Assembly (NCBI GenBank): GCA_965200835.1
Contig: OZ241390.1
Location: forward strand, 2,256,297-2,320,296
Direction of reading: 5' to 3'
DNA length: 64,000 nucleotides
DNA from: Acidimicrobiia bacterium
Lineage (GTDB): Bacteria > Actinomycetota > Acidimicrobiia > Spongiisociales > Spongiisociaceae
Shown here: in pieces, positions 18,243-52,466 of the stretch
How positions within the stretch are numbered: position 1 is the stretch's first letter
How the letters are laid out: every line of letters begins with the position of its first letter
Translations under genes and position numbers: made by a program
The notes under the pieces: generated by a model
What the model was told of the DNA's origin: nothing
Databases searched by the model: none
What the model saw: only the letters and a program-made list of their open reading frames with translations

Positions 18243-19732
18243 ATGCCGTATATTGACCAGCATGTTTCATCAACCAACTCTGTGGCGCTGGTCGGCGTGA
18301 AGGCGCGTGCCGTCCGCGTAGAGGCTCATGTGGGAGGAGGAGAGAAAGGCCGGCTCAATGTGGTGGGCCTGCCCGACACCGCGGTGCGAGAGGCCAAAGA
18401 CCGGGTGCTGGCAGCCATGGCGGTGTCCGGTTACCGTTTCCCGCCCCGGTCGGTCACCGTCAACCTGGCGCTGGCCGACCTGCCCAAGTCGGGAAGCGCC
18501 TACGACCTACCCATCGCCCTATCCCTGCTGGCGGCTGCAGGGATAGGGCGATCGGTGCCTGCAACGTGGTAGCCCTCGGGGAGCTGGCGCTGGACGGCAG
18601 CCTTCGCCCGGCACCCGGAGGTCTGGGGGCGGCCGTCGTGGCCGCCGAAATGGGCATACCCTGCCTGCTTCCGCCCGTTTCCGCCACCGAGGCGAGCATC
18701 GTGGGCTCGGCCAATGTCCAGATGGTGGGTTCGCTGGCCACCGCCATCGCGGCCGCACTCGGCGAGGCCGACTTTCCGCCCCCACAAGTGCCCCGCGTTG
18801 CGGAGGTCGAGCGCGCAGACCTGGCTGAGGTCAGGGGCCAGCCGCTGGCCAAGCGGGCCCTCGAGGTGGCGGCGGCCGGCGGTCACCACATGTTCCTGTC
18901 CGGTCCTCCTGGATCAGGCAAGACCATGCTGGCCCGCTGCCTGCCCGGACTGCTGCCGGATCTGGACGAGCAGGCCGCGCTGGAGGTAGCGCAGGTATGG
19001 TCGACCGCAGGCCGGCCCCGCACCTCGCTGCTCAGGCCACCCATCCGATCACCGCACCACACGGCCACCACGCCGGCGATGGTCGGCGGCGGCTCGGGGT
19101 CACCGGTTCCCGGTGAGATCAGCCTGGCACATCGGGGAGTGCTGTTCCTCGATGAGCTGGGAGAGTTCCGCCCCCACCTGCTGGACGCGCTGCGCCAGCC
19201 CCTCGAGGAGGGCGAGGTCACCATCGCCCGGAAGGGTGTCTCGGTCACCTTCCCGGCCGCCGTGCAGCTGATGGCGGCCACCAATCCCTGCCCGTGTGGG
19301 TTCCTGGGCGACTACCGCCAGGGGTGTAATTGCAGCGCCCGGATGGTCCAGCGTTACCGCCGACGGCTGTCCGGGCCGTTGATGGATCGGTTCGACATCC
19401 GGGTGATGGTCGAGCAGGTGGACGTGGACGCCTTCATCGGACCGCCGGAGGAACCCAGCCAGCCGGTAGCCGAGCGGGTGGCGGCAGCTTGGCAGGCCCA
19501 GCACGCCCGAGGGCGCCGGAATCGGGACCTGGGCCGGAGCGAGCTGGACGCCCTGGAGATGGCCAACGGTGCCAAGAAGCTGGTCGAGGGTGCTCTCCGG
19601 CACGGCTCTCTGACGGGGAGGGGATTCGACCGGGTCCGGCGGCTGTCCCGCACGGTGGCCGACCTGGCCGGCTCGGCGGCTGTGGGAGAACCACACACGG
19701 CCGAGGCGCTGGTCCTGCGAGGGGTGATATGA
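18243..19732 (+). pseudogene. comM: Mg-chelatase-like AAA+ ATPase ComM/YifB, interrupted by a frameshift near 18,545-18,572
   Basis: The N-terminal 109 aa ('..NVVGLPDTAVREAKDRV..YDLPIALSLLAAAGIG') stop at a TAG at 18570-72. The remaining ~388 aa continue in the +1 frame from a GTG at 18566 ('LGELALDGSLRP..GPPGSGKT..'). Together they equal a normal ComM length (~497 aa). Confidence 0.75.
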
Positions 19733-26954: not shown

Positions 26955-27613
26955 TCGCCTATACAGCATCGGAGCCGGAGCTCCCAGTTGGCCCACCCCC
27001 CAGCAACTACCTGGTTCCCACGGTGGTGGAGTCCACCAGTCGGGGGGAACGTGCCTTCGACATCTTTTCCCGCCTGCTCAAGGACCGCATCATCTTTTTG
27101 GGCACCGCGATCGATGACGCGGTGGCCAACCTGGTGATGGCCCAGCTTCTCCACCTGGAGTCGGAGGATCCCGACCGTGACGTGAACCTCTACATCAACT
27201 CCCCGGGTGGCGAGATCACCAGTCTCTTCGCCATCTACGACACCATCCAGTACATCAAGCCCGATGTGAGCACCGTGTGTATGGGTATGGCGGCCTCCGC
27301 GGCGGCCGTGATCCTGGCCGGCGGGACCAAGGGAAAACGTTTCGCCCTTCCCCATGCCCGGGTCATGCTCCACCAGCCTCATGGCGGAGCACGAGGGCAA
27401 GCTGCCGACATCGAGATCCAAGCCCGGCTGATCGTGCAGATGCGGGAGCAGCTCAATCGGATCCTGGCCCGCCACACCGGCCAGGAGTACGAGAAGGTGG
27501 CCAAGGACACCGACCGTGACTTCTGGATGCTGTCCGAAGAAGCCGTCGACTACGGGATCGTCGACGACGTCCTGCTCAGCAGGGATCTGGCGGCGGTGCC
27601 GGATCGGAACTGA
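26951..27613 (+). CDS. clpP: ATP-dependent Clp protease proteolytic subunit
   Basis: '[22 protein letters not shown]' and catalytic-Ser '[12 protein letters not shown]'. Confidence 0.9.
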
Positions 27614-44768: not shown

Positions 44769-45062
44769 AACCGCGTCGGCAAGCAGTGACGGGGGCCGGA
44801 CCGCGGGGCGCCTTAGGAGCCGGAACCTGGTGCCACTGATTCTGCGCCCTGATCAGCTGTTGGCTACATTTTCCTTGCGCTGAAGCTTCGCCGGGGCCGA
44901 GAAAAGCGATACTGTGATCACTCTCACATGGTAGAGTCAGCTGGTGATTCTAGCTTTGCCAGCGGCTGATGGAACGGTGACATTACGTTGTGAAAGTAGG
45001 TTGCTTCCTTTGGAGGGGGCATTACGAGGGCCAGTATTGCTGGAAGTACGGAGCCTCCTACT

Positions 45063-46981
45063 GTGGGTGGTCTGAGTAAGTTATCTGGCCTCATATCGTT
45101 GCTTGTAGCAGTTGTCGTTGCTTACGGCTTCTCGGTCCCGCTTTTCAGCCTCTCTCCCCTTCAGGCAAAGAGCGCTGGTTCTTTTGACTTAGCCGTTTCT
45201 TACTCTTCGAGGTGTCCGAACGGCGGCCGAAGCTGACTTGCCTGATGTTGTCGGTAGCTACTGGGATGTCAATGAGGACTCAGTTCATTATTCAAGCATC
45301 TCGACTCTCACCAGCCTCGGTGTGTTTCGGGATACTGGGTGTGGGAACGACCGGTTTTGTCCCGAAGAGCCGCTTCTACGTTGGGTGATGGCTGTTTGGT
45401 TAATTCGGATGCTCTATGAGGAGCCTTCGGATGCTGGTAATACTTTCTACGATGTAGATGATTGGGAATGGTGGGCAGGGCAGGTGGTTCGTCTTGGTGA
45501 GGTGGGTGTAACTTCGGGTTGTAGCGCCGATCCTCCGTACTTTTGTCCTGACTATGCGGTCACTCGTGCTCAGATGGCTACGTTTCTGACTCGCGCATTC
45601 CGGCTCGATCCGGTAGCTTCTAGTGGGTTCGCTGACGTTGACCTAACGATGCACACGCTGACGGCATCGGTGCGTTGGCCGCTTCGGGTGTCACTGCCGG
45701 ATGTCGGACTGATCCTCCCAGGTTCTGTCCCAACCAGGCCGTGACTCGTGCTCAGATGGCTACGTTTCTGGCACAGGTCCTCAACCTCTCACCCATAGCC
45801 GACCAAGACCACGGTCGGGATAGTGCTCCTGACGACATTGTTGCTTACGGTGAGGTTAATGGGCGGATAGCCGCTGGTCTTTATCACTCTTGTGCCATCG
45901 GTCTCGACGACACGATAACCTGTTGGGGTTCTGATTATTCTGGTAAGACAGATACTCCTGTCGGTAAGTATAAGTAGGTTTCGGCCGGTGTTAGTCATTC
46001 GTGCGCTATCGACTTTGACGACACGATAACCTGTTGGGGTTTGATAGCTCTGGTGAGACAGATGCTCCTGTCGGTAAGTATAAGTAGGTTTCGGCCGGTG
46101 TTAGTCATTCGTGTGCTATCGGTTTTGACGACACGATAACCTGTTGGGGTTCTGACCATAATCTTGATGTTGATATTGGTGTTGGGGCCCTTGATGCTCC
46201 CCACGGTAAGTTTAGGCAGATAGTCACTTATAACCTTCATTCCTGTGCAGTCACCTTGGGTGGAACGATCCGATACTGGGGCAACAGATTTCGTGCTCGG
46301 GATGGTAAATATCGGCAGGTAACCGTCGGGAACGGGCATGCGTGTGCGATCACTCTGAGCGATACGATCGTCTGCTGGGGCGCGGACCGCTATGGTCAGC
46401 TTGAGGCTCCTGACGGTACGTTTGTGCAGATAGCCACTGGTGAGCATCATTCGTGTGCTATCACTGTAAAAGATGCGTTTGTCTGTTGGGGCCGTAACCG
46501 TTATGGCGAGACTAATGCCCCAGGCAGTGAACCCATAAGCAGTGTTCCTACGGTGACACTATTCGACATTACTGATGAACAAGACCGTGATCTACGTTCA
46601 TATTTGGACGGTGATAAGCATTTGATGCTGTGGTTCTTCGCACCGTGGTGACCGTCTTGTCGGGCTATGGCGCCCGTTGTTGAGCAGTTTGCTCAACAGT
46701 ACTTGAGTGAGGTGAAGGTTATCGTGGTTGGCAGCCAAGCTAGTTTGGAACGTGTTAAGACCGGTCTTGACGACCTCGACCTCGGCGTTGACAGCATTCC
46801 CGTATGGGACTCCGGAAACACTTTGTGGGGTATCTGGCCTCCAGCCAACAACCACCCACAGTTTGGCTCCTTTAGTAACAACTCCCGCTATGTGGTGTTT
46901 CGGCCCGATGGCTCTCTTCTGGACGGCGGCGTCTGGAACTGCCCAAGCTGCTCATCTCCTCCTTGGACACCCGAAGGGTAG
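45063..46981 (+). pseudogene. Decayed gene for a protein with a signal peptide, three SLH domains, an RCC1-like beta-propeller repeat array and a TlpA-like thioredoxin-fold domain
   Basis: Signal peptide 'LSKLSGLISLLVAVVVAYG..LQA'. SLH motifs '..AVTRAQMATFL..'. About six 37-aa repeats 'G(K/T)(Y/F)xQ(V/I)..GxxHSCAI..DxTIxCWG'. Redoxin 'WFFAPW[TGA]PSC'. There are at least three frame changes, two in-frame TAGs (45975-77 and 46085-87) and one in-frame TGA (46649-51). Confidence 0.6.
45868..46097 (+). repeat. Near-identical 110/111-bp tandem direct repeat, about two copies, inside the RCC1 array. Each copy ends in '..GGTAAGTATAAGTAG'.
   Basis: Copies at 45868-45977 and 45978-46087. They differ by a few substitutions and a 1-nt deletion. 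Both carry TAG where the repeat consensus has CAG (Gln). Confidence 0.7.
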
Positions 46982-47237
46982 CTTTAGCAATATGATGCGT
47001 GTGGTAGCAGTTTTGAACACATTTGTTTGGGGCTACTTTGTGTGGGGATACTGGTTGGTTGGCGTGTTGGTGTTCACGACAGGCATCTGTAGGGTTAACC
47101 ACGATCTGGCTCTTGGGTTTATCCGTAGAGTATGGCAAATTCAGTTTCATAAACAAGGTTCCGCGGGATAGGCTGGAGTCCTTAGAGGAACCGGCCTAGG
47201 TGGCTTTACATAAGCGAAATGGGAAATAGGGGTAGTT

Positions 47238-47876
47238 GTGATAGCGCGGACAAAAGTCTTGTTACTGGTAGTTGGGGCCGCCTCTGTGGTAGTTGGATTG
47301 GCTATTTGTTCCGGATCCTGACCGGCCGGACGAGGAGCCTGATGTTGAACCGAGAGCTATAATATATTCCGGAGTCGGAGGAACCAGATTCCCCGGATGT
47401 TGTCGTTCCAGAGCCAGAGGAACCTGACCCCCCGGTGGAGGTTGACAGGCCGGACCTCGAGGTTGATTATGTCCAGGTAGCCGCCGGTCACTAGCATGAG
47501 TGTGCGGTCACCTCAGGCGGGTACATTGAGTGCTGGGGCGGCGACGAGTACGGGGAGGTGTCGGGGGCGCCAACCGACCGCGGTTATATCCAGGTCTCCC
47601 CAGGGGCCGGGCATGAGTGTGCGGTCACCGCCGACGGGTACATTGAGTGCTGGGGCTATGACTACTACGGGCAGGTGTCGGGGGCGCCGACGGGTGGCGG
47701 TGATATTCAAGTCTCAGCCGGTTGGGAGCATGTATGTGCGATCAGATCAGGCGACGAGTACATTGAGTGCTGGGGCAGCGACAGGTGGTAGTGGCGCAGC
47801 TGGATATCTTGAGGGGTTCAACTGCGGCGTTGTGTCGGATTGGGGGTTTTCGTGTGTGATTACAGGCAATCCTTAG
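47238..47876 (+). pseudogene. Second decayed RCC1-repeat protein with a lipoprotein-type signal and an Asp/Glu/Pro-rich linker
   Basis: 'VIARTKVLLLVVGAASVVVGLAICSGS'. 'EPDPPVEVDRPDLEVD' linker. Repeats 'GxxHECAVTxxGYIECWGxDxYGQVSGAP'. Frameshifts and an in-frame TAG at 47492-94. Confidence 0.5.
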
Positions 47877-48777
47877 GTTGCGGGGTTGCCGGTCGGATGT
47901 GATTCGGGTGTGTTCGGCCGTGAAGGGTGGTGGGGTGTGCCGATCGTCTCTCTGGAGTTCTCCTGAGGTGGTTCAGGTAGTTCATGTTGGCGTTTGGGCC
48001 GTTGACGGTTGTGTGATAGCTTTTGGGAGCGAGCGCCAGGTCGCCATGGTGAACAACCTTTGAGTGTTCGTAGTTTTTGTTTTCACGTCGGTTGCGGTGC
48101 AGCGCGTAACCGTCGGGTCGATTCAGACAGAAGTAGTAGGTCTGTCTTCCAGTTAGGGCGAGCCCTGGCGCCCGTCATGGGAATGGGGCGGCCACGCAGC
48201 CGATGTGCGTCTTGGGATACACACCTCATAGAGAGTCAGGTGCTCGGCCGGCCGTGGGTACGCCATTGAGTGCACCCGCTGGCGGGGCGCCTGGCCACCG
48301 CCGCGAGTCGCGATCTTCGTCTCGTGCGCTCGAACAGCACACGTTTTGGGTAGCGGCCCTCAGTCGGTGTGGAGCCAGACGTTGCCACAAGCCGGTGATC
48401 AGATTCGACCACGAATGGTGTGGCTGGCGGAATGTAGACCACGTAACCCATATGATCGAACACCGAGCTACTGCTTGTCGGCTCCAGTTTGGGTGCCGTC
48501 GAAGACCCAGTCGGTTGAGACCAGGATCAGCTTCGCACCGACTTGTTCGCTGCCTTCGCGAGCACCCGGAAGCGCACCGGCAGAAGTCCTTTCAAGACTC
48601 ACGCTAGCCTCCGGGGCATCTGCCATCAGACTTGTCACGGTGCCGCTTCAATCCAATCACATGATCTTGACCGCGTCTGAGGTCGCTGAGAGGCCAGCGT
48701 CAGCCGGTATTTACGGTGCCTGCCGTAGAAGGAGAATCTTTGGAGATTGCTCGGCTGAAGTAGTCAGGAGACTAAGC

Positions 48778-49059
48778 ATGATCTCGGTTGATCTATCTAC
48801 AGTCCGTTGGCTATTGCCGGTTGTGGCGCTTGCTGTTGTTGCCCTAATCGGCTGCGGCGCCGACCCCGAACCGCCCGCGGCCACCGACACCGCAGAGCAA
48901 GAACCCATGTACGAGGCTGCCGACATGCCAGGGGAACAACCCGAAGCCACGGACACATCCGAAGAAGAAGCCGCTTCAACCGTGGACACTCCCAACACCG
49001 CCGACGGCGCATATATGCAGGTTTCGTCCAGGTTATGGTCCGGCCCGTTATTATGGTGA
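48778..49059 (+). CDS. small acidic lipoprotein (hypothetical)
   Basis: AGGAG Shine-Dalgarno 8 nt upstream of the ATG. Signal peptide plus lipobox 'VVALIGCG'. Asp/Glu/Thr-rich mature part. Confidence 0.45.
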   Translation: MISVDLSTVRWLLPVVALAVVALIGCGADPEPPAATDTAEQEPMYEAADMPGEQPEATDTSEEEAASTVDTPNTADGAYMQVSSRLWSGPLLW

Positions 49060-49219
49060 TAGTAACTATATGTATGCGGCGGTCGGTACGGGTGCGGGTG
49101 ATGGTACTTTGGCACAGTGGAAGTTTGTTGCATTGTAGTTGATGATGACTTTGATATTGAGGTGTTTGTTCCTTATAATCATGGTTCTGCACGGGTTATG
49201 TATAGGATTCGGTCTTTGA

Positions 49220-49816
49220 ATGATATTGGTGGTTGGGATGAGCGGCGGTGTTCGGATGTTGGAGCAGGTTAAACTGTCGGGGTGGTCTCGTTTGGGGGAT
49301 TCTTTATATGTTGATGGTAGTGAGTCGGTGCCTCGGTCTTTGGTGATTCAGGTTCACTATTCGGACTCGCAGTATGCGGAGGGGTTTCCGGTTGATCCTC
49401 TTTATCGAATGATGGGTGTGGATGCCGTCAGGATACGGTGTTCTTCCTGTGGTGGTGAGGATGAGGAGCCTGTGGATGAGGAGCCTCCGTCTCGGCCGCG
49501 GAATATGAGGCTGGTGCGGCAGGACAGTCCCCGCTCGGGGTATAGGTATCAGTATGTTATTAGTGTTGACCCGCCGGCCGATAGTGGTGGTGGTCCGGTG
49601 ACGGGTTATAGGTTTACGTTTGCCCGTGCTGGGCGTGGTGGTTCTTTTGTTAGGAGTGTCCCTAGGATTATTCTCCTTACGAAGTCAGCGACTAGATATA
49701 CCGTTTCGTTTTCGGCTGTTAATGAGTTTGGTACTAGTGATCCGATTACGCCGGCGTTTTACTACGCCTCGGTCTGTGACGGAACCGTCCGTGCCGACAC
49801 CTGGTCGACCGCTTAA
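49220..49816 (+). CDS. fibronectin type-III domain protein, N-terminal part
   Basis: FN3 signature 'PSRPRNMRLV..GYRYQYVISVDPP..VTGYRFTF..TRYTVSFSAVNEFGTSDP'. Overlaps the next ORF in another frame. This may be a frameshifted single gene. Confidence 0.45.
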   Translation: MILVVGMSGGVRMLEQVKLSGWSRLGDSLYVDGSESVPRSLVIQVHYSDSQYAEGFPVDPLYRMMGVDAVRIRCSSCGGEDEEPVDEEPPSRPRNMRLVRQDSPRSGYRYQYVISVDPPADSGGGPVTGYRFTFARAGRGGSFVRSVPRIILLTKSATRYTVSFSAVNEFGTSDPITPAFYYASVCDGTVRADTWSTA

Positions 49817-50837
49817 TCTTAAGGTTACGGTTGGGATTATGGATGCTGAAAGTCGGCGACTGCCTGTTACGTTGACTTGGAGTCGGCCATCTGGGTCCGG
49901 TGGTCGTGATGTTGATCACTATAAATTGCAGATTGTGGATGCGGGCGGTAGACGAGTGCAGGAGTGGACACCGAGGGAGATTAGGCATCCGGCCTATTTG
50001 TATCCGGATGTGTCAGGTAGTTATAAGGTTACAGTGTCGGCAGTGAACCGCGGCAGTGGCCGCAGTGTGATTGGTCCGTCTGTGAGTAAGCAGTTTACTC
50101 TGTCGGCCTGTCCGTATGATAAGCGGCTACTGACATCGAGGAATAGGCAGGTATCTGCTCGAAGGTTCCCTGTGGTTGATGTGAGTCGGCAGGTTTATAT
50201 TCAGGCTCGTCAAAAAAGCGGAGAGCTGCATGACCGTAAATTGATTCGTGGTGCTATAGGCAGCTGGGGTTGTGCCTGGGTTGGCTATGGGGCGGAGCTT
50301 AACAATAGAAGCTTTGTGAGGGATGACGCACTTGTTACTGGGCGTGCAATCGTCAAAGACGATGCGACAGTGTCGAATGGTGCTCTTGTTTCGGGTAATG
50401 CAGAGGTCAGCGGTCGAGCACAAGTTTATCAGGGCGCCAGGATAATAGGCAACAATCTTGGCAGGGATAAAGCGAGAGTTTACGATGATGCTCGAGTGTA
50501 TTGCAATGCCAAGATATCAGAAAATGCTACAGTTTACGGTCATGCTGAAGTGTATGGAGCAGCACAGGTTTATGGCGACGCGGATGTTCGCGGGGACGCT
50601 AGGGTGTATGGTAATGCTAAGGTTTACGGTGCCTTGACTATTGTAGAAGGTAACGCCCAGGTCTATGGGAACGCCGAAGTTTATGGTACGGACACAGAAA
50701 GTGTGAGGCGTTTGGAGACCGAGACTCGTATACGGGGCAATGCTGAAGGTCACGGAGAGGCTGTGGTCTTTGGCAAAGAGACGATCATTGAAGGCAGCGC
50801 CAAAGTTTATGGCGACGCGAGGCTTGGTAGCAGATAA
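49620..50837 (+). CDS. Protein with a second FN3 domain followed by about 25 tandem hexapeptide 'A-x-V-Y-G-x' repeats (beta-solenoid-like). The real start is probably an internal GTG near 49776, or the gene is frameshift-fused to the preceding ORF.
   Basis: 'PGRPLNLKVTV..LTWSRPSGSGGRDVDHYKLQI..SYKVTVSAVNRGSGRS' FN3, then 'GNAEVSGRAQVYQGARIIGN..ARVYGNAKVYGALTIVEGNAQVYGNAEVYG'. Confidence 0.5.
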   Translation: MPVLGVVVLLLGVSLGLFSLRSQRLDIPFRFRLLMSLVLVIRLRRRFTTPRSVTEPSVPTPGRPLNLKVTVGIMDAESRRLPVTLTWSRPSGSGGRDVDHYKLQIVDAGGRRVQEWTPREIRHPAYLYPDVSGSYKVTVSAVNRGSGRSVIGPSVSKQFTLSACPYDKRLLTSRNRQVSARRFPVVDVSRQVYIQARQKSGELHDRKLIRGAIGSWGCAWVGYGAELNNRSFVRDDALVTGRAIVKDDATVSNGALVSGNAEVSGRAQVYQGARIIGNNLGRDKARVYDDARVYCNAKISENATVYGHAEVYGAAQVYGDADVRGDARVYGNAKVYGALTIVEGNAQVYGNAEVYGTDTESVRRLETETRIRGNAEGHGEAVVFGKETIIEGSAKVYGDARLGSR

Positions 50838-50891
50838 GAACCCCTTGTTATCGATGAGCCTCATTATGATGGCAAACAGGAATTCGAATGG

Positions 50892-51345
50892 ATGGCCAAG
50901 GAAGCATACAACGTGGCCTACCGTCAAGCTAGGGACTATTTATCGGATTGCTTCCCCAAATTGTGGGCAACTATGAAGCAGGAAGATAAACATGACACAA
51001 TCCGGGTCGGCTTGGGTGAACCGTGGTCAAATACACGCGCACTCCCTGAGGAGATTCTCAAAATGGCGTGTGATAATTTCGAGTTCGCCGAAACGGATCA
51101 GGGAAATGGTGAACCCATGGATGGCCAGTTTTGGTTTTGTGGCACCATTTCTGAAAGCGGGTAAGCTCACAGGATACTTGAAGCTGATAAGGGACGGGAT
51201 CATACTCGCCTACGACGCAAAGAACGTGTGGGACAACATGAACCTGCTCACAGCCTTGACAGAAGCAAAAGGTATGATGATGAAGAACACCTTCGAACAA
51301 TGCCGTAAGGCATCAGAGGCATCAGAGCCATTCAAAGACTGCTAA
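50892..51345 (+). CDS. Hypothetical low-GC ORF(s): two overlapping frames (50892..51164 and 50992..51345) with no recognisable domain
   Basis: AT-rich codon usage typical of the island. No homology recognised. Possibly one frameshifted gene. Confidence 0.25.
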
Positions 51346-52466
51346 ACAGGCAGGCATGAAGAACACAGAAATCCGACACTACAACACGCCGATCATACTA
51401 TTCACCATAGTTTAGGCAAACCATCACCCAATGGCAGTTGACATTAGGCAGCCGGGCACCCTTGCCCTAGACGAAAACAGCGCCTACCGCGGTTACCACA
51501 AAGCAGACCGGGAAGACTGACACGCCGAACCTGCCATCGTCAAAGCGTCCGGCGACAGAAAGCAGACACCTGGCAATCCCTCTAGACAACACCATCACCC
51601 TGCTTAGGGAAAGAATGCTTCGCGGGTGGTAAGGGGTGGCCGAGCGGTGCACCACCGGCTATCCGATCACCCCGCAACCGATGGTCAGGACCAATGACGG
51701 CGGATCAGCCAGGCCGTCCGCCACTCGGGGTAGGTGGCGGAAGTGACGATGGTGGGTACCTTCGCTAGCCCGGAGGCAACAATCACCGCGCTGATCATAT
51801 AGCTGAAACGGGGAGCATCGCGCCGGGGACGGGTTGAGAATAAACGGGAGGCGGATTTCGGGTGCCGATCACTCACAGCTTCTGGTTCTGATGCCCGTCT
51901 CCGGAACTCGCCCCGCTGAGAACAGTGACTCGGCTCCGGCTATGGCAGACGGAACGGCGAAGATGATCAGATGGTCCGTGCCGTGACGGACGTCACACCC
52001 GAGGGAACGAACGCCCGATCACCTGGGACGATTCCCGCCATCACCGGCCCTGACGGAGGGGCAGATCCTTCAGAGTCGGTCTCACCGTCCTGGGAACCGG
52101 CTGGAACTTCGAGCTTGATCACTTCGGAGTTGGTATCGGAGAAGGTGGCTACCGAACGCAGGTTTGCCTCTCCTCACGAAGCGGAGGATCTGTGCCGCCG
52201 TCGCCAGGCTCGGTGAGACGGTTGTGCATGTTTGGCTGACCTCGTTGCGATCCGAGCGGTGACGCGGAGGCTATCCGGGGTAGTTCAGGGGGTTCCGAAC
52301 CTCCGGCAATGGGGTGCACACCCCGGAACGCCCCGCTGGTTGTCCCTTGGCAGACGCATTTCCGGCGGATACATTGGCCTTACGACCGGATCCGGCGCTG
52401 CGCGATGCCGGTGCGGGTCGTGGATGGCGAGCATTGGCTGCGCGGCGGGAGGCAGGAGGTGTCCTC

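What the first reader, a model, noticed from the sequence alone, without database searches (positions are those of the whole stretch)
46640..46700. In-frame TGA on the first Cys of a W-C-P-S-C redox motif, with a downstream hairpin: a selenocysteine candidate or a nonsense lesion
The redoxin domain reads 'HLMLWFFAPW-[TGA]-PSCRAMAPVVEQFAQQY..' in frame. A TGA replacing the first Cys of a thioredoxin-fold CxxC motif is the textbook signature of UxxC selenoproteins. A perfect hairpin with a 9-bp stem and a GUU loop follows: tTTGAGCAg-GUU-cTGCTCAAa at 46678-46698. Its loop is about 36 nt from the UGA, with a G at the first loop position. This is inside the loose geometry described for bacterial SECIS elements.

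Against this, the same gene carries other clearly disabling lesions. No selA/selB/selC/selD genes are in the window. Sec usage would be unexpected in this context. A simple TGC/TGT-to-TGA nonsense mutation is therefore at least as likely.
Basis: partly seen in the sequence, partly recalled or inferred. Interest (0 to 1): 0.5.

Follow-up and report, generated by a model that had tools for sequence, protein, structure and literature searches.

The report
Relic selenocysteine codon in broken redoxin gene
The in-frame TGA is a genuine, evolutionarily conserved selenocysteine codon with its RNA insertion signal, belonging to a known kind of secreted thiol-disulfide redox protein, but this particular gene copy has been destroyed by other mutations, so it is a fossil selenoprotein gene rather than a working one.

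Summary
TGA at 46649-46651 replaces the first Cys of W-C-P-S-C in a thioredoxin-fold domain. A 10-bp hairpin with a GUU loop lies at 46677-46699.

The TGA is not a nonsense lesion. An intact homologue (L026, 51% identical) has TGA at the same codon as its only in-frame stop. Its neighbouring paralogue has TGA there too. An unbiased codon-level metagenome scan returned 81 TGA genes of one lipoprotein redoxin family and no Cys form of it.

All share a two-hairpin element at fixed spacing. It shows invariant synonymous sites, a compensatory C-G/U-A pair and a register-shift compensation. A covariance model built without the window hits 46649-46702 at E = 4e-15. All four published bSECIS criteria are met. 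Cys homologues exist and lack the conserved helix sequence.

The window copy is nevertheless dead. It has two or three frameshifts and two TAG stops upstream, and it sits in a low-GC island of gene fragments that has replaced trkH/trkA.

Whether this sponge-symbiont Acidimicrobiia genome has Sec machinery could not be tested. TlpA-like UxxC selenoproteins are already known, so this is a new, decayed member of a known kind, with moderate to low interest.

The parts
45063..45236 (+). N-terminal signal-peptide fragment (MGGLSKLSGLISLLVAVVVAYGFSVPLFSLSPLQA...). It is in a different frame from the SLH repeats that follow, which implies frameshift 1 at about 45190-45236.
   Evidence: The frameshift is inferred from the signal-peptide logic and from the intact L026 architecture. 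Independent Logan contigs are 99.9% identical here with no gaps.
45214..45639 (+). SLH-type repeats 1-2, collinear with residues 46-181 of the intact L026 protein (47% identity).
   Evidence: tblastn; PF00395 SLH.
45640..45665 (+). Frameshift 2. The reading frame changes between SLH2 and SLH3 (FADVDLT | DAHADGIGALAASGVT).
   Evidence: It is present without gaps in independent Logan contigs L001, L003, L004 and L005.
45666..45782 (+). SLH-type repeat 3 (67% identical to L026 residues 190-228).
45840..46540 (+). Block of RCC1-like repeats, absent from the intact homologue L026. It carries TAG at 45975-45977, a 1-nt deletion between 46041 and 46042 (frameshift 3) and TAG at 46085-46087.
   Evidence: RCC1_2, 5 stretches, E = 4e-36; 111/110-nt tandem units; alignment showing the deleted base and the shared TAG; TAG coordinates.
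46544..46981 (+). Thioredoxin-fold (TlpA/DsbE/ResA-like) redoxin domain with U-P-S-C, ending in TAG at 46979-46981. It has a second C-P-S-C at 46940-46951.
   Evidence: It is 51% identical to L026, 33% over 132 aa to the lipoprotein family (E = 2e-19) and 64% to P0003.
46649..46651 (+). UGA, the ancestral selenocysteine codon at the first position of UxxC.
   Evidence: TGA is at the aligned codon in L024, L025 and L026 gene 1, in L026 gene 2 and in 81 metagenome genes. Cys is at this position in full-length homologues P0010 to P0053.
46661..46676 (+). Hairpin 1 of the SECIS-like element (CGGGC / GCCCG, 5 bp, 6-nt loop).
   Evidence: Across the family the GCCCG arm is kept by a 1-nt register shift coupled to the Pro codon's third base.
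46677..46699 (+).
   Evidence: The invariant GAGCAGUUYGCUC core and the +33/+47 C-G to U-A covariation are.
46649..46702 (+). Full match to the covariance model built from 57 unrelated metagenome UGA-plus-54-nt sequences.
   Evidence: 63.5 bits, E = 4e-15, all 11 modelled pairs formed, the only significant hit in the window.

Best explanation
The TGA at 46649-46651 is an inherited selenocysteine codon, not a nonsense mutation.

It sits at the first position of the U-x-x-C redox motif of an extracytoplasmic TlpA/DsbE/ResA-like thiol-disulfide oxidoreductase domain. In this subfamily the domain is exported by a signal peptide and tethered to the cell wall by three SLH repeats.

The RNA just downstream forms two hairpins: CGGGC/GCCCG at +13 to +28, and the 10-bp GUU-loop hairpin at +29 to +51. 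This is the family's bacterial SECIS element. In a Sec-competent cell it would recruit SelB-GTP-Sec-tRNA(Sec) to the ribosome paused at UGA, so that selenocysteine is inserted instead of termination. That step is inferred from the established bacterial mechanism.

In this genome, a sponge-associated Acidimicrobiia of Candidatus Spongiisociaceae, the copy is a pseudogene. It acquired an RCC1-repeat block and is interrupted upstream of the Sec codon by two or three frameshifts and two TAG codons. It lies in a 7.5-kb low-GC island of gene fragments that replaced most of trkH and trkA.

Shown here: the codon, the hairpins, their conservation and covariation, the Cys/Sec homologue pairing and the lesions. 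Inferred: SelB binding, the redox role and non-expression.
For: (1) Conserved TGA. The intact homologue L026 has about 401 codons (signal peptide, 3 SLH repeats, redoxin), and TGA at the aligned codon is its only interruption. The adjacent paralogue has TGA at the same motif position.

(2) A codon-level pattern allowing TGN at this codon and any synonymous codon elsewhere returned 95 metagenome matches. Of these, 81 are TGA and all belong to one lipoprotein family, 'WFWAPH-U-PxCRAE[AG]PxVEQFA[RQ]'. The 14 TGC/TGT matches are a different family, classical thioredoxins.

(3) Nucleotide-level constraint. The 4-fold site at +45 is U in 57 of 57, against G, C and T at 6, 5 and 1 in the Cys controls. 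GAG and CAG are invariant. +15 is G in 55 of 57.

(4) Covariation. The +33/+47 pair is C-G in 53, U-A in 7, U-G in 3 and mismatched in 2. No shuffle of 500 reached the observed covariation score, and 89.6% of cells are paired against 27-46% when partners are slid. Hairpin 1 is kept by a register shift: G at +24 goes with C/U at +27 in 44 of 44, and C/U at +24 goes with G at +27 in 19 of 21.

(5) A model built without the window finds 46649-46702 at E = 4e-15.

(6) All four bSECIS constraints quoted in PMC13188914 are met: a 3-nt loop, a 10-bp stem, G then U at the start of the loop, 35-nt spacing, and -11.9 kcal/mol.

(7) Cys homologues (31-44% identical, 'redoxin domain-containing protein') have WFWAPH-C-PICRAEAP but a variable following helix. 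So the VEQFA conservation is an RNA constraint, not a protein one.

(8) An exhaustive HMMER search with the C-terminal domain found only two relatives. Both are ORFs truncated just after the motif, as gene callers produce at a TGA.

(9) Pseudogene status: lesions; the first three reproduced in independent assemblies; trkA/trkH remnants next door.
Against: Sec machinery (selA, selB, selC, selD) was not found in the window or in any fetched locus, and the rest of the genome could not be examined. One sponge Acidimicrobiia bin in the literature lacks SelA and SelB.

The metagenome pattern was derived from the window and L026. Fixed positions therefore match by construction, and the requirement for V-E-Q-[FL]-A selects sequences carrying the element. 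The covariance-model score partly reflects protein homology.

Only one base pair shows full compensatory change, and the sequences are related, so shuffle controls overstate significance. Which of the two hairpins binds SelB is not established. The apical loop lies near the far end of the allowed spacing.

The TGA region of the window is supported only by the window and one 100%-identical ENA contig whose independence is unknown. No expression or selenium-labelling data exist.
Confidence: 0.8

Rival explanations
1. The TGA is a nonsense lesion. A TGC/TGT Cys codon of an ordinary CxxC redoxin mutated to TGA during decay of the pseudogene, and the hairpin is coincidental.
For: The gene is heavily decayed, with frameshifts and TAG stops. 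No Sec machinery is seen in the window. Cys-type homologues of the wider family exist.
Against: This would require the same codon to have been hit independently in L026 gene 1 (otherwise intact), in L026 gene 2 and in 81 other genes. The downstream element matches a family-wide covarying structure at E = 4e-15. Perfect hairpins of this size occur only twice in 64 kb. No Cys-containing close relative of this subfamily was found among 1.84 billion representative proteins.
Confidence: 0.03
2. It is a live selenoprotein gene. The upstream frameshifts and TAGs are assembly errors, are bypassed, or are irrelevant because a shorter product containing the redoxin domain is translated from an internal start and Sec is inserted at UGA.
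For: The redoxin domain (46544-46981) has no lesion other than the UGA, and the SECIS-like element is perfectly intact with all 11 modelled pairs. SelA and SelB are common in sponge symbionts (PMC5649159).
Against: Frameshifts 1 and 2 and the first TAG are reproduced without gaps in independent Illumina-derived contigs from other samples. The 1-nt deletion is evident against sister repeats. Any internally initiated product would lack the signal peptide and the SLH anchor present in the intact homologue and would start inside an RCC1 blade. Neighbouring genes in the island are also fragmented.
Confidence: 0.07
3. The TGA is an ancestral Sec codon, but the copy arrived by horizontal transfer into a genome lacking Sec machinery and so was never functional here, or the lineage lost the Sec trait and its selenoprotein genes then decayed. 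This is a variant of the best explanation that specifies the cause of death.
For: The island is about 54% GC against 65% in the host, with strong G/T strand skew. None of 17 related genomes has the gene at this locus, where they carry trkH and trkA instead. One sponge Acidimicrobiia bin has SelD but no SelA or SelB.
Against: The genome's Sec machinery status is unknown. Other fragments in the island that are not selenoprotein genes are equally decayed. General decay of the island therefore explains the lesions without invoking the Sec trait.
Confidence: 0.3

Closest known systems
[quoted passage not shown]
   Same: Thioredoxin fold. UxxC with Sec at the first, attacking position. Cys-containing homologues. 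A stem-loop immediately downstream of the UGA within the coding region. Predicted secreted or lipoprotein thiol-disulfide oxidoreductase.
   Different: I could not compare with the reference accessions of those families, so identity with a named family is unproven. The window and L026 subfamily is fused to a signal peptide and three SLH cell-wall-anchor repeats, plus RCC1 repeats in the window, and has a divergent C-terminal half (PPxxxHP...FSNNxRY). The window copy is a pseudogene.
Consensus bacterial SECIS (bSECIS) model of Zhang and Gladyshev, as summarised in PMC13188914, with E. coli fdhF as prototype
   Same: Hairpin in the coding sequence after the UGA. Small apical loop with G followed by U. 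Upper stem of 4-16 bp. Spacing of 16-37 nt. Free energy below -7.5 kcal/mol.
   Different: This element has two conserved hairpins rather than one. The G-U loop lies at +39/+40, near the distal limit, whereas it lies nearer +23/+24 in fdhF (my recollection). SelB binding is untested.
Cys-type actinobacterial lipoprotein redoxins ('redoxin domain-containing protein' of Ornithinimicrobium and Micropruina; P0010 to P0053)
   Same: Same length and lipoprotein signal. Same WFWAP[HW]-x-P/T/V-x-CRAEAP active-site context. 31-44% identity to the Sec family.
   Different: They have Cys instead of Sec, and the helix after the motif is variable rather than VEQFA[RQ]. That is, they carry no SECIS footprint.

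Membership tests
Bacterial selenoprotein gene (UxxC thioredoxin-fold type) | In-frame TGA aligned with a conserved redox Cys of Cys-containing homologues (a Cys/Sec pair) | tested here: met
   The window's TGA aligns with Cys in P0010, P0012, P0013 and others (WFWAPHCPICRAEAP).
Bacterial selenoprotein gene (UxxC thioredoxin-fold type) | TGA-containing homologues in other organisms at the same position | tested here: met
   L024, L025 and L026 gene 1, L026 gene 2 and 81 metagenome genes.
Bacterial selenoprotein gene (UxxC thioredoxin-fold type) | Coding potential continues downstream of the TGA in the same frame | tested here: met
   109 further codons that are homologous to P0003 (64%), L026 (51%) and the lipoprotein family (33% over 132 aa).
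Bacterial selenoprotein gene (UxxC thioredoxin-fold type) | Otherwise intact, translatable ORF from a start codon | tested here: not met
   Two or three frameshifts and two TAGs lie upstream, so the window copy is a pseudogene. The homologue L026 is intact.
Bacterial selenoprotein gene (UxxC thioredoxin-fold type) | Genome encodes selC, selA, selB and selD | not testable with these tools
   None is in the 64-kb window or the fetched loci. The literature shows the trait is present in some sponge Acidimicrobiia and absent in others.
bSECIS consensus model (PMC13188914, Fig. 2 legend) | 3-9 nt apical loop and 4-16 bp upper stem | tested here: met
   3-nt GUU loop (5-nt AGUUY across the family) and a 10-bp stem.
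bSECIS consensus model (PMC13188914, Fig. 2 legend) | G in one of the first two loop positions, usually followed by G or U | tested here: met
   The loop is G-U-U. G39 and U40 are invariant in 57 of 57 family members.
bSECIS consensus model (PMC13188914, Fig. 2 legend) | 16-37 nt between the UGA and the apical loop | tested here: met
   35 nt (46652-46686). The spacing is identical in all family members.
bSECIS consensus model (PMC13188914, Fig. 2 legend) | Minimum free energy of -7.5 kcal/mol or lower | tested here: met
   -11.9 kcal/mol for hairpin 2 alone and -21.2 for UGA plus 54 nt.
bSECIS consensus model (PMC13188914, Fig. 2 legend) | Binds SelB and directs Sec insertion | not testable with these tools
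   This needs a reporter or binding experiment.
TlpA/DsbE/ResA-like extracytoplasmic thiol-disulfide oxidoreductase | Thioredoxin-fold domain scoring above curated cut-offs | tested here: met
   Pfam Thioredoxin 38.4 bits (cutoff 23.5), Thioredoxin_8 28.4 (27) and Redoxin 27.4 (26.6). No NCBIfam equivalog reaches its cutoff, so no specific named subfamily can be assigned.
TlpA/DsbE/ResA-like extracytoplasmic thiol-disulfide oxidoreductase | Export signal or membrane or wall anchoring | tested here: inconclusive
   The intact L026 has a signal peptide and 3 SLH repeats, and the main family has lipoprotein signals. In the window the signal-peptide fragment is out of frame. One family member (L055) is adjacent to a DsbD_TM/CcdA gene, but this neighbourhood is not general.

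The most novel reading that the evidence does not exclude
The SLH-anchored U-x-x-C redoxins (window, L026, P0003) may form a small subfamily of cell-surface selenoproteins that exists only in the Sec form and is confined to sponge-associated bacteria. Its decay here, inside a low-GC acquired island, may record either loss of the selenocysteine trait in this Spongiisociaceae lineage or a horizontally transferred selenoprotein gene that was non-functional on arrival because the recipient could not decode UGA as Sec.
Probability: 0.2. Interest if true: 0.5.

Novelty: new member of a known kind. Interest (0 to 1): 0.35.

Why it matters
It shows that an in-frame TGA inside an obvious pseudogene can still be a real recoding signal.

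Annotation pipelines would count this TGA as one more disabling lesion. They split the intact relatives into two hypothetical ORFs, as all database entries found here are split.

The comparative set assembled here gives a well-supported bSECIS class for actinobacterial-type lipoprotein redoxins. It comprises 57 unique sequences with invariant synonymous sites, one compensatory pair and one register-shift compensation. It could be used to annotate these genes.

If the source genome lacks Sec machinery, the locus would be a concrete example of a selenoprotein gene decaying after loss of the trait or after transfer. Otherwise the finding is incremental, because thioredoxin-fold UxxC selenoproteins and their SECIS hairpins are well known.

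Tried and rejected
- **Exhaustive HMMER search, first attempts.** I used the stop-free stretch after the TGA instead.
- **Word-indexed protein search.** With the redoxin domain it returned only the window's own two ORF fragments.
- **Metagenome scan with protein-derived patterns.** It matched 89 stretches but none was a relative. The short JGI contigs L024 and L026 are evidently not in that collection.
- **P0003.** It lies on a 2.8-Mb NCBI/ENA contig, but its DNA could not be retrieved, so the codon before it is unverified.
- **Screen for other in-frame stops with coding-like GC3 on both sides.** It was uninformative in this high-GC genome; the top case at 27611 is just two adjacent genes.
- It found nothing in 0.92 Mb of held sequence. 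ARAGORN found no tRNA-Sec.
- **Taxonomic placement of the 81 contigs.** Looking for housekeeping genes shared with the window failed.
- **Rfam.** No family matches the element.
- **Literature look-ups.** Searches for the sample accessions and for 'Spongiisocius' found nothing.
- **Stop-codon reassignment or pyrrolysine for the TAGs.** Considered and rejected, because frameshifts accompany them, the two TAGs lie in near-identical tandem repeat units, and the rest of the window uses standard stops.
Full report
**Observation**

In one frame the + strand reads HLMLWFFAPW, then TGA (46649-46651), then PSCRAMAPVVEQFAQQY.... With Cys substituted, the 143-aa segment scores above Pfam cut-offs for Thioredoxin, Thioredoxin_8 and Redoxin.

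The hairpin spans 46677-46699: nine Watson-Crick pairs plus one G-U pair, with a GUU loop. It folds at -11.9 kcal/mol alone. The 72 nt after the UGA fold at z = -2.3 against shuffles. Only two perfect hairpins with a stem of at least 9 bp exist in the 64 kb. A second GC-rich hairpin, CGGGC-UAUGGC-GCCCG, lies between the UGA and the first hairpin at 46661-46676.

**Context**

The window comes from a 65% GC Acidimicrobiia bacterium. Its ProB is at most 76% identical to MAGs named Candidatus Spongiisociaceae or Spongiisocius. The gene order mreBCD-pbp2-rodA-rne-rplU-rpmA-obg-proB is conserved.

Between proB and an M23 peptidase the relatives carry trkH and trkA on the minus strand. The window keeps only a TrkA C-terminal remnant and a TrkH N-terminal remnant (about 51538-52225). 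In their place it has a 7.5-kb segment of about 54% GC with strong G/T excess on the + strand. None of the 17 related loci contains the gene of interest.

**The gene and its lesions**

Translation in three frames, Pfam and alignment to an intact homologue give this layout:

- a signal peptide (45063-45236, frame 0);
- SLH repeats 1-2 (45214-45639, another frame);
- SLH repeat 3 (45666-45782, frame 0 again);
- about 700 nt of RCC1-like repeats;
- the redoxin domain (46544-46981).

Apart from the TGA, the interruptions are:

- an inferred frameshift after the signal peptide;
- a frameshift between SLH2 and SLH3;
- TAG at 45975;
- a 1-nt deletion at 46041/46042, visible against sister repeats;
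- TAG at 46085.

Contigs assembled independently from other sequencing runs are 99.9% identical without gaps up to 45984. They therefore confirm the first three lesions. An ENA contig is 100% identical over the whole island. The gene is a pseudogene.

**Is the TGA one more lesion?**

No. An exhaustive HMMER search of 1.84 billion representative proteins with the stretch after the TGA found only two true relatives, P0003 (64% identity) and P0004 (47%). Both are short ORFs beginning just after the motif.

The DNA encoding P0004 and its variant P0008 was retrievable. In contig L026 a single frame encodes a signal peptide, three SLH repeats and the redoxin domain. That is about 401 codons, whose only interruption is TGA in ...DLMLWFFAPW-TGA-PRCRARAPIVEQFAQ.... 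This is exactly the window's position.

Immediately downstream, a second lipoprotein redoxin also has TGA at the first motif position (MLWFWDVY-TGA-PTCRAKASEVEQLAR). All three genes have GUU GAG CAG UUN GCU C beginning 27 nt after the UGA.

**A wider family**

I scanned metagenome contigs with a codon-level pattern: TGN CCN NNN TGY CGN GCN, then 12 N, then GTN GAR CAR YTN GC. It does not prefer TGA over TGY and leaves synonymous sites free. Of 95 matches, 81 carry TGA. All 81 belong to one family of lipoproteins of about 200 aa...WFWAPH-U-PxCRAE[AG]PxVEQFA[RQ]...VIGLGTQ.... The 14 TGC/TGT matches are classical thioredoxins...DFWAPWCPPCRAL.P.VEQLA....

The window's domain aligns with this family over the whole fold (33% over 132 aa, pairwise E = 2e-19).

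Caveat: the pattern came from the window and L026. Requiring V-E-Q-[FL]-A selects for sequences carrying the element, so '81 of 81' does not mean the family lacks Cys forms. Full-length Cys homologues do exist at 31-44% identity. They are annotated as redoxin domain-containing protein in Ornithinimicrobium and Micropruina, or as thiol-disulfide isomerase/thioredoxin. They have the same WFWAPH-C-PICRAEAP context but a variable helix afterwards (DLVDFAARH, EVLAVAEEF...). That is a classical Cys/Sec pair. It also shows that the VEQFA conservation in the Sec forms is not a protein requirement.

**RNA structure**

In 57-65 unique UGA sequences, several synonymous positions vary freely among all four bases (for example +6, +18 and +30). 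Others are frozen. The 4-fold site at +45 is U in every sequence, although these are GC-rich genomes, and GAG, CAG and CGG are essentially invariant. In the Cys thioredoxins from the same scan, +45 is G, C or T (6, 5 and 1). Local folding energy there is -4.4 kcal/mol against -9.7.

The pair +33/+47 is C-G in 53 sequences, U-A in 7 and U-G in 3, with 2 mismatches. It links a synonymous Val site to an Arg/Gln replacement.

Hairpin 1 keeps a GCCCG arm opposite CGGGC by shifting register. When the preceding codon ends in G, the Pro codon ends in C or U (44 of 44). When it ends in C or U, the Pro codon ends in G (19 of 21).

On the fixed structure, 89.6% of cells pair, against 27-46% when partners are slid. 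No shuffle of 500 reaches the observed covariation score. The sequences are related, so this overstates significance.

A covariance model built from the 57 sequences, excluding the window, finds 46649-46702 at 63.5 bits and E = 4e-15, with all 11 pairs formed. It is the only significant hit in the window. The model also finds both L026 sites. Part of that score reflects protein homology.

The published bSECIS constraints are a 3-9 nt loop, a 4-16 bp stem, G in the first two loop positions, 16-37 nt spacing, and an energy of -7.5 kcal/mol or lower (PMC13188914). All are met. Rfam has no matching family.

**Sec machinery**

None is present in the window or in any fetched locus. The rest of the genome was out of reach.

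The literature removes the argument that Sec would be unexpected here. SelA and SelB co-occur in most sponge-symbiont bins of Aplysina aerophoba. Among its two Acidimicrobiia bins, bin76 has SelA, SelB and SelD, and bin134 has only SelD (PMC5649159). All 84 complete Actinomarina genomes, from another Acidimicrobiia order, encode selC, selA, selD and a divergent selB (bioRxiv 10.64898/2026.04.03.716425).

**Conclusion**

The TGA and the hairpin are the inherited Sec codon and SECIS of a TlpA/DsbE/ResA-like UxxC redoxin. [quoted passage not shown]

The SLH-anchored architecture, the RCC1 insertion and the two-hairpin element with its specific invariant core are particulars I did not find described. 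The window copy is dead.

The cause of its decay is open. It could be general erosion of an acquired island, or inability to decode UGA as Sec in this host. I rate the relic-selenoprotein explanation at 0.8, a live gene at 0.07 and a plain nonsense mutation at 0.03.

Noticed in passing
window 51538-52225 (minus strand): Remnants of TrkA (C-terminal ~100 aa, 52225-51917) and TrkH (N-terminal ~146 aa, 51966-51538). Relatives have complete trkH-trkA between proB and the M23 peptidase, so this genome appears to have lost the Trk potassium uptake genes at this locus.
   Followed up: partly
window 44800-52300: Low-GC island (53-59% against about 65%) with marked G>C and T>A excess on the + strand (GC skew up to 0.20, AT skew to -0.17). 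It consists almost entirely of fragmented + strand ORFs. Its origin (horizontal transfer, mutational bias) is undetermined.
   Followed up: partly
window 47219-47800: A second broken gene: a lipoprotein signal peptide (VVGLAICSG) in one frame, then an acidic Pro-rich linker and three RCC1-like repeats in another frame, with an in-frame TAG at 47492-47494 (AAGH*HECAV). It parallels the position of the second lipoprotein gene in L026, but no redoxin domain or SECIS match follows it.
   Followed up: partly
window 18513-18552: The only other long perfect hairpin in the window (16-bp stem, 8-nt loop) lies inside a ComM/YifB-like gene (...YDLPIALSLLAAAG...). It coincides with a frame change: a TAG at 18570, and the motif VVALGELALDGSLRP continues in another frame from 18566. 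This suggests an inverted-duplication event that disrupted the gene.
   Followed up: no
L026 1699-2493 (TGA at 2317): A second selenoprotein candidate lies directly downstream of the intact SLH redoxin. It is a lipoprotein with a long acidic Ser/Gly-rich linker and the motif MLWFWDVY-TGA-PTCRAKASEVEQLAR, and it is cut by the contig end. Tandem redoxin paralogues also occur in L031, L033, L075, L082 and L092.
   Followed up: partly
L024 1-555 versus L026: L024, seen in 4 samples, is 99.4% identical to L026 only from its position 556 onward. Upstream it has unrelated DNA, so the signal peptide and SLH1-2 are missing. This is either a 5'-truncated allele or a chimeric assembly.
   Followed up: partly
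window 46940-46951: A second C-P-S-C motif lies near the C-terminus of the redoxin domain (GGVWNCPSCSSPPW). P0003 has C-L-G-C at the same place and L026 has none. It could be a second redox or metal site specific to this branch.
   Followed up: no
window 49220-50837: Two overlapping + strand ORFs in different frames (49220-49816 and 49620-50837). The second has an fn3-like segment and YdcK-type beta-solenoid/hexapeptide repeats (GNAxVYG). Probably one surface-protein gene split by a frameshift.
   Followed up: partly
L055 11479-12426 (minus strand): A DsbD_TM/CcdA-type transmembrane thiol-electron transporter lies next to one member of the Sec lipoprotein redoxin family. In L044 the neighbour is a 1-Cys peroxiredoxin. 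The neighbourhood is not conserved across loci.
   Followed up: partly
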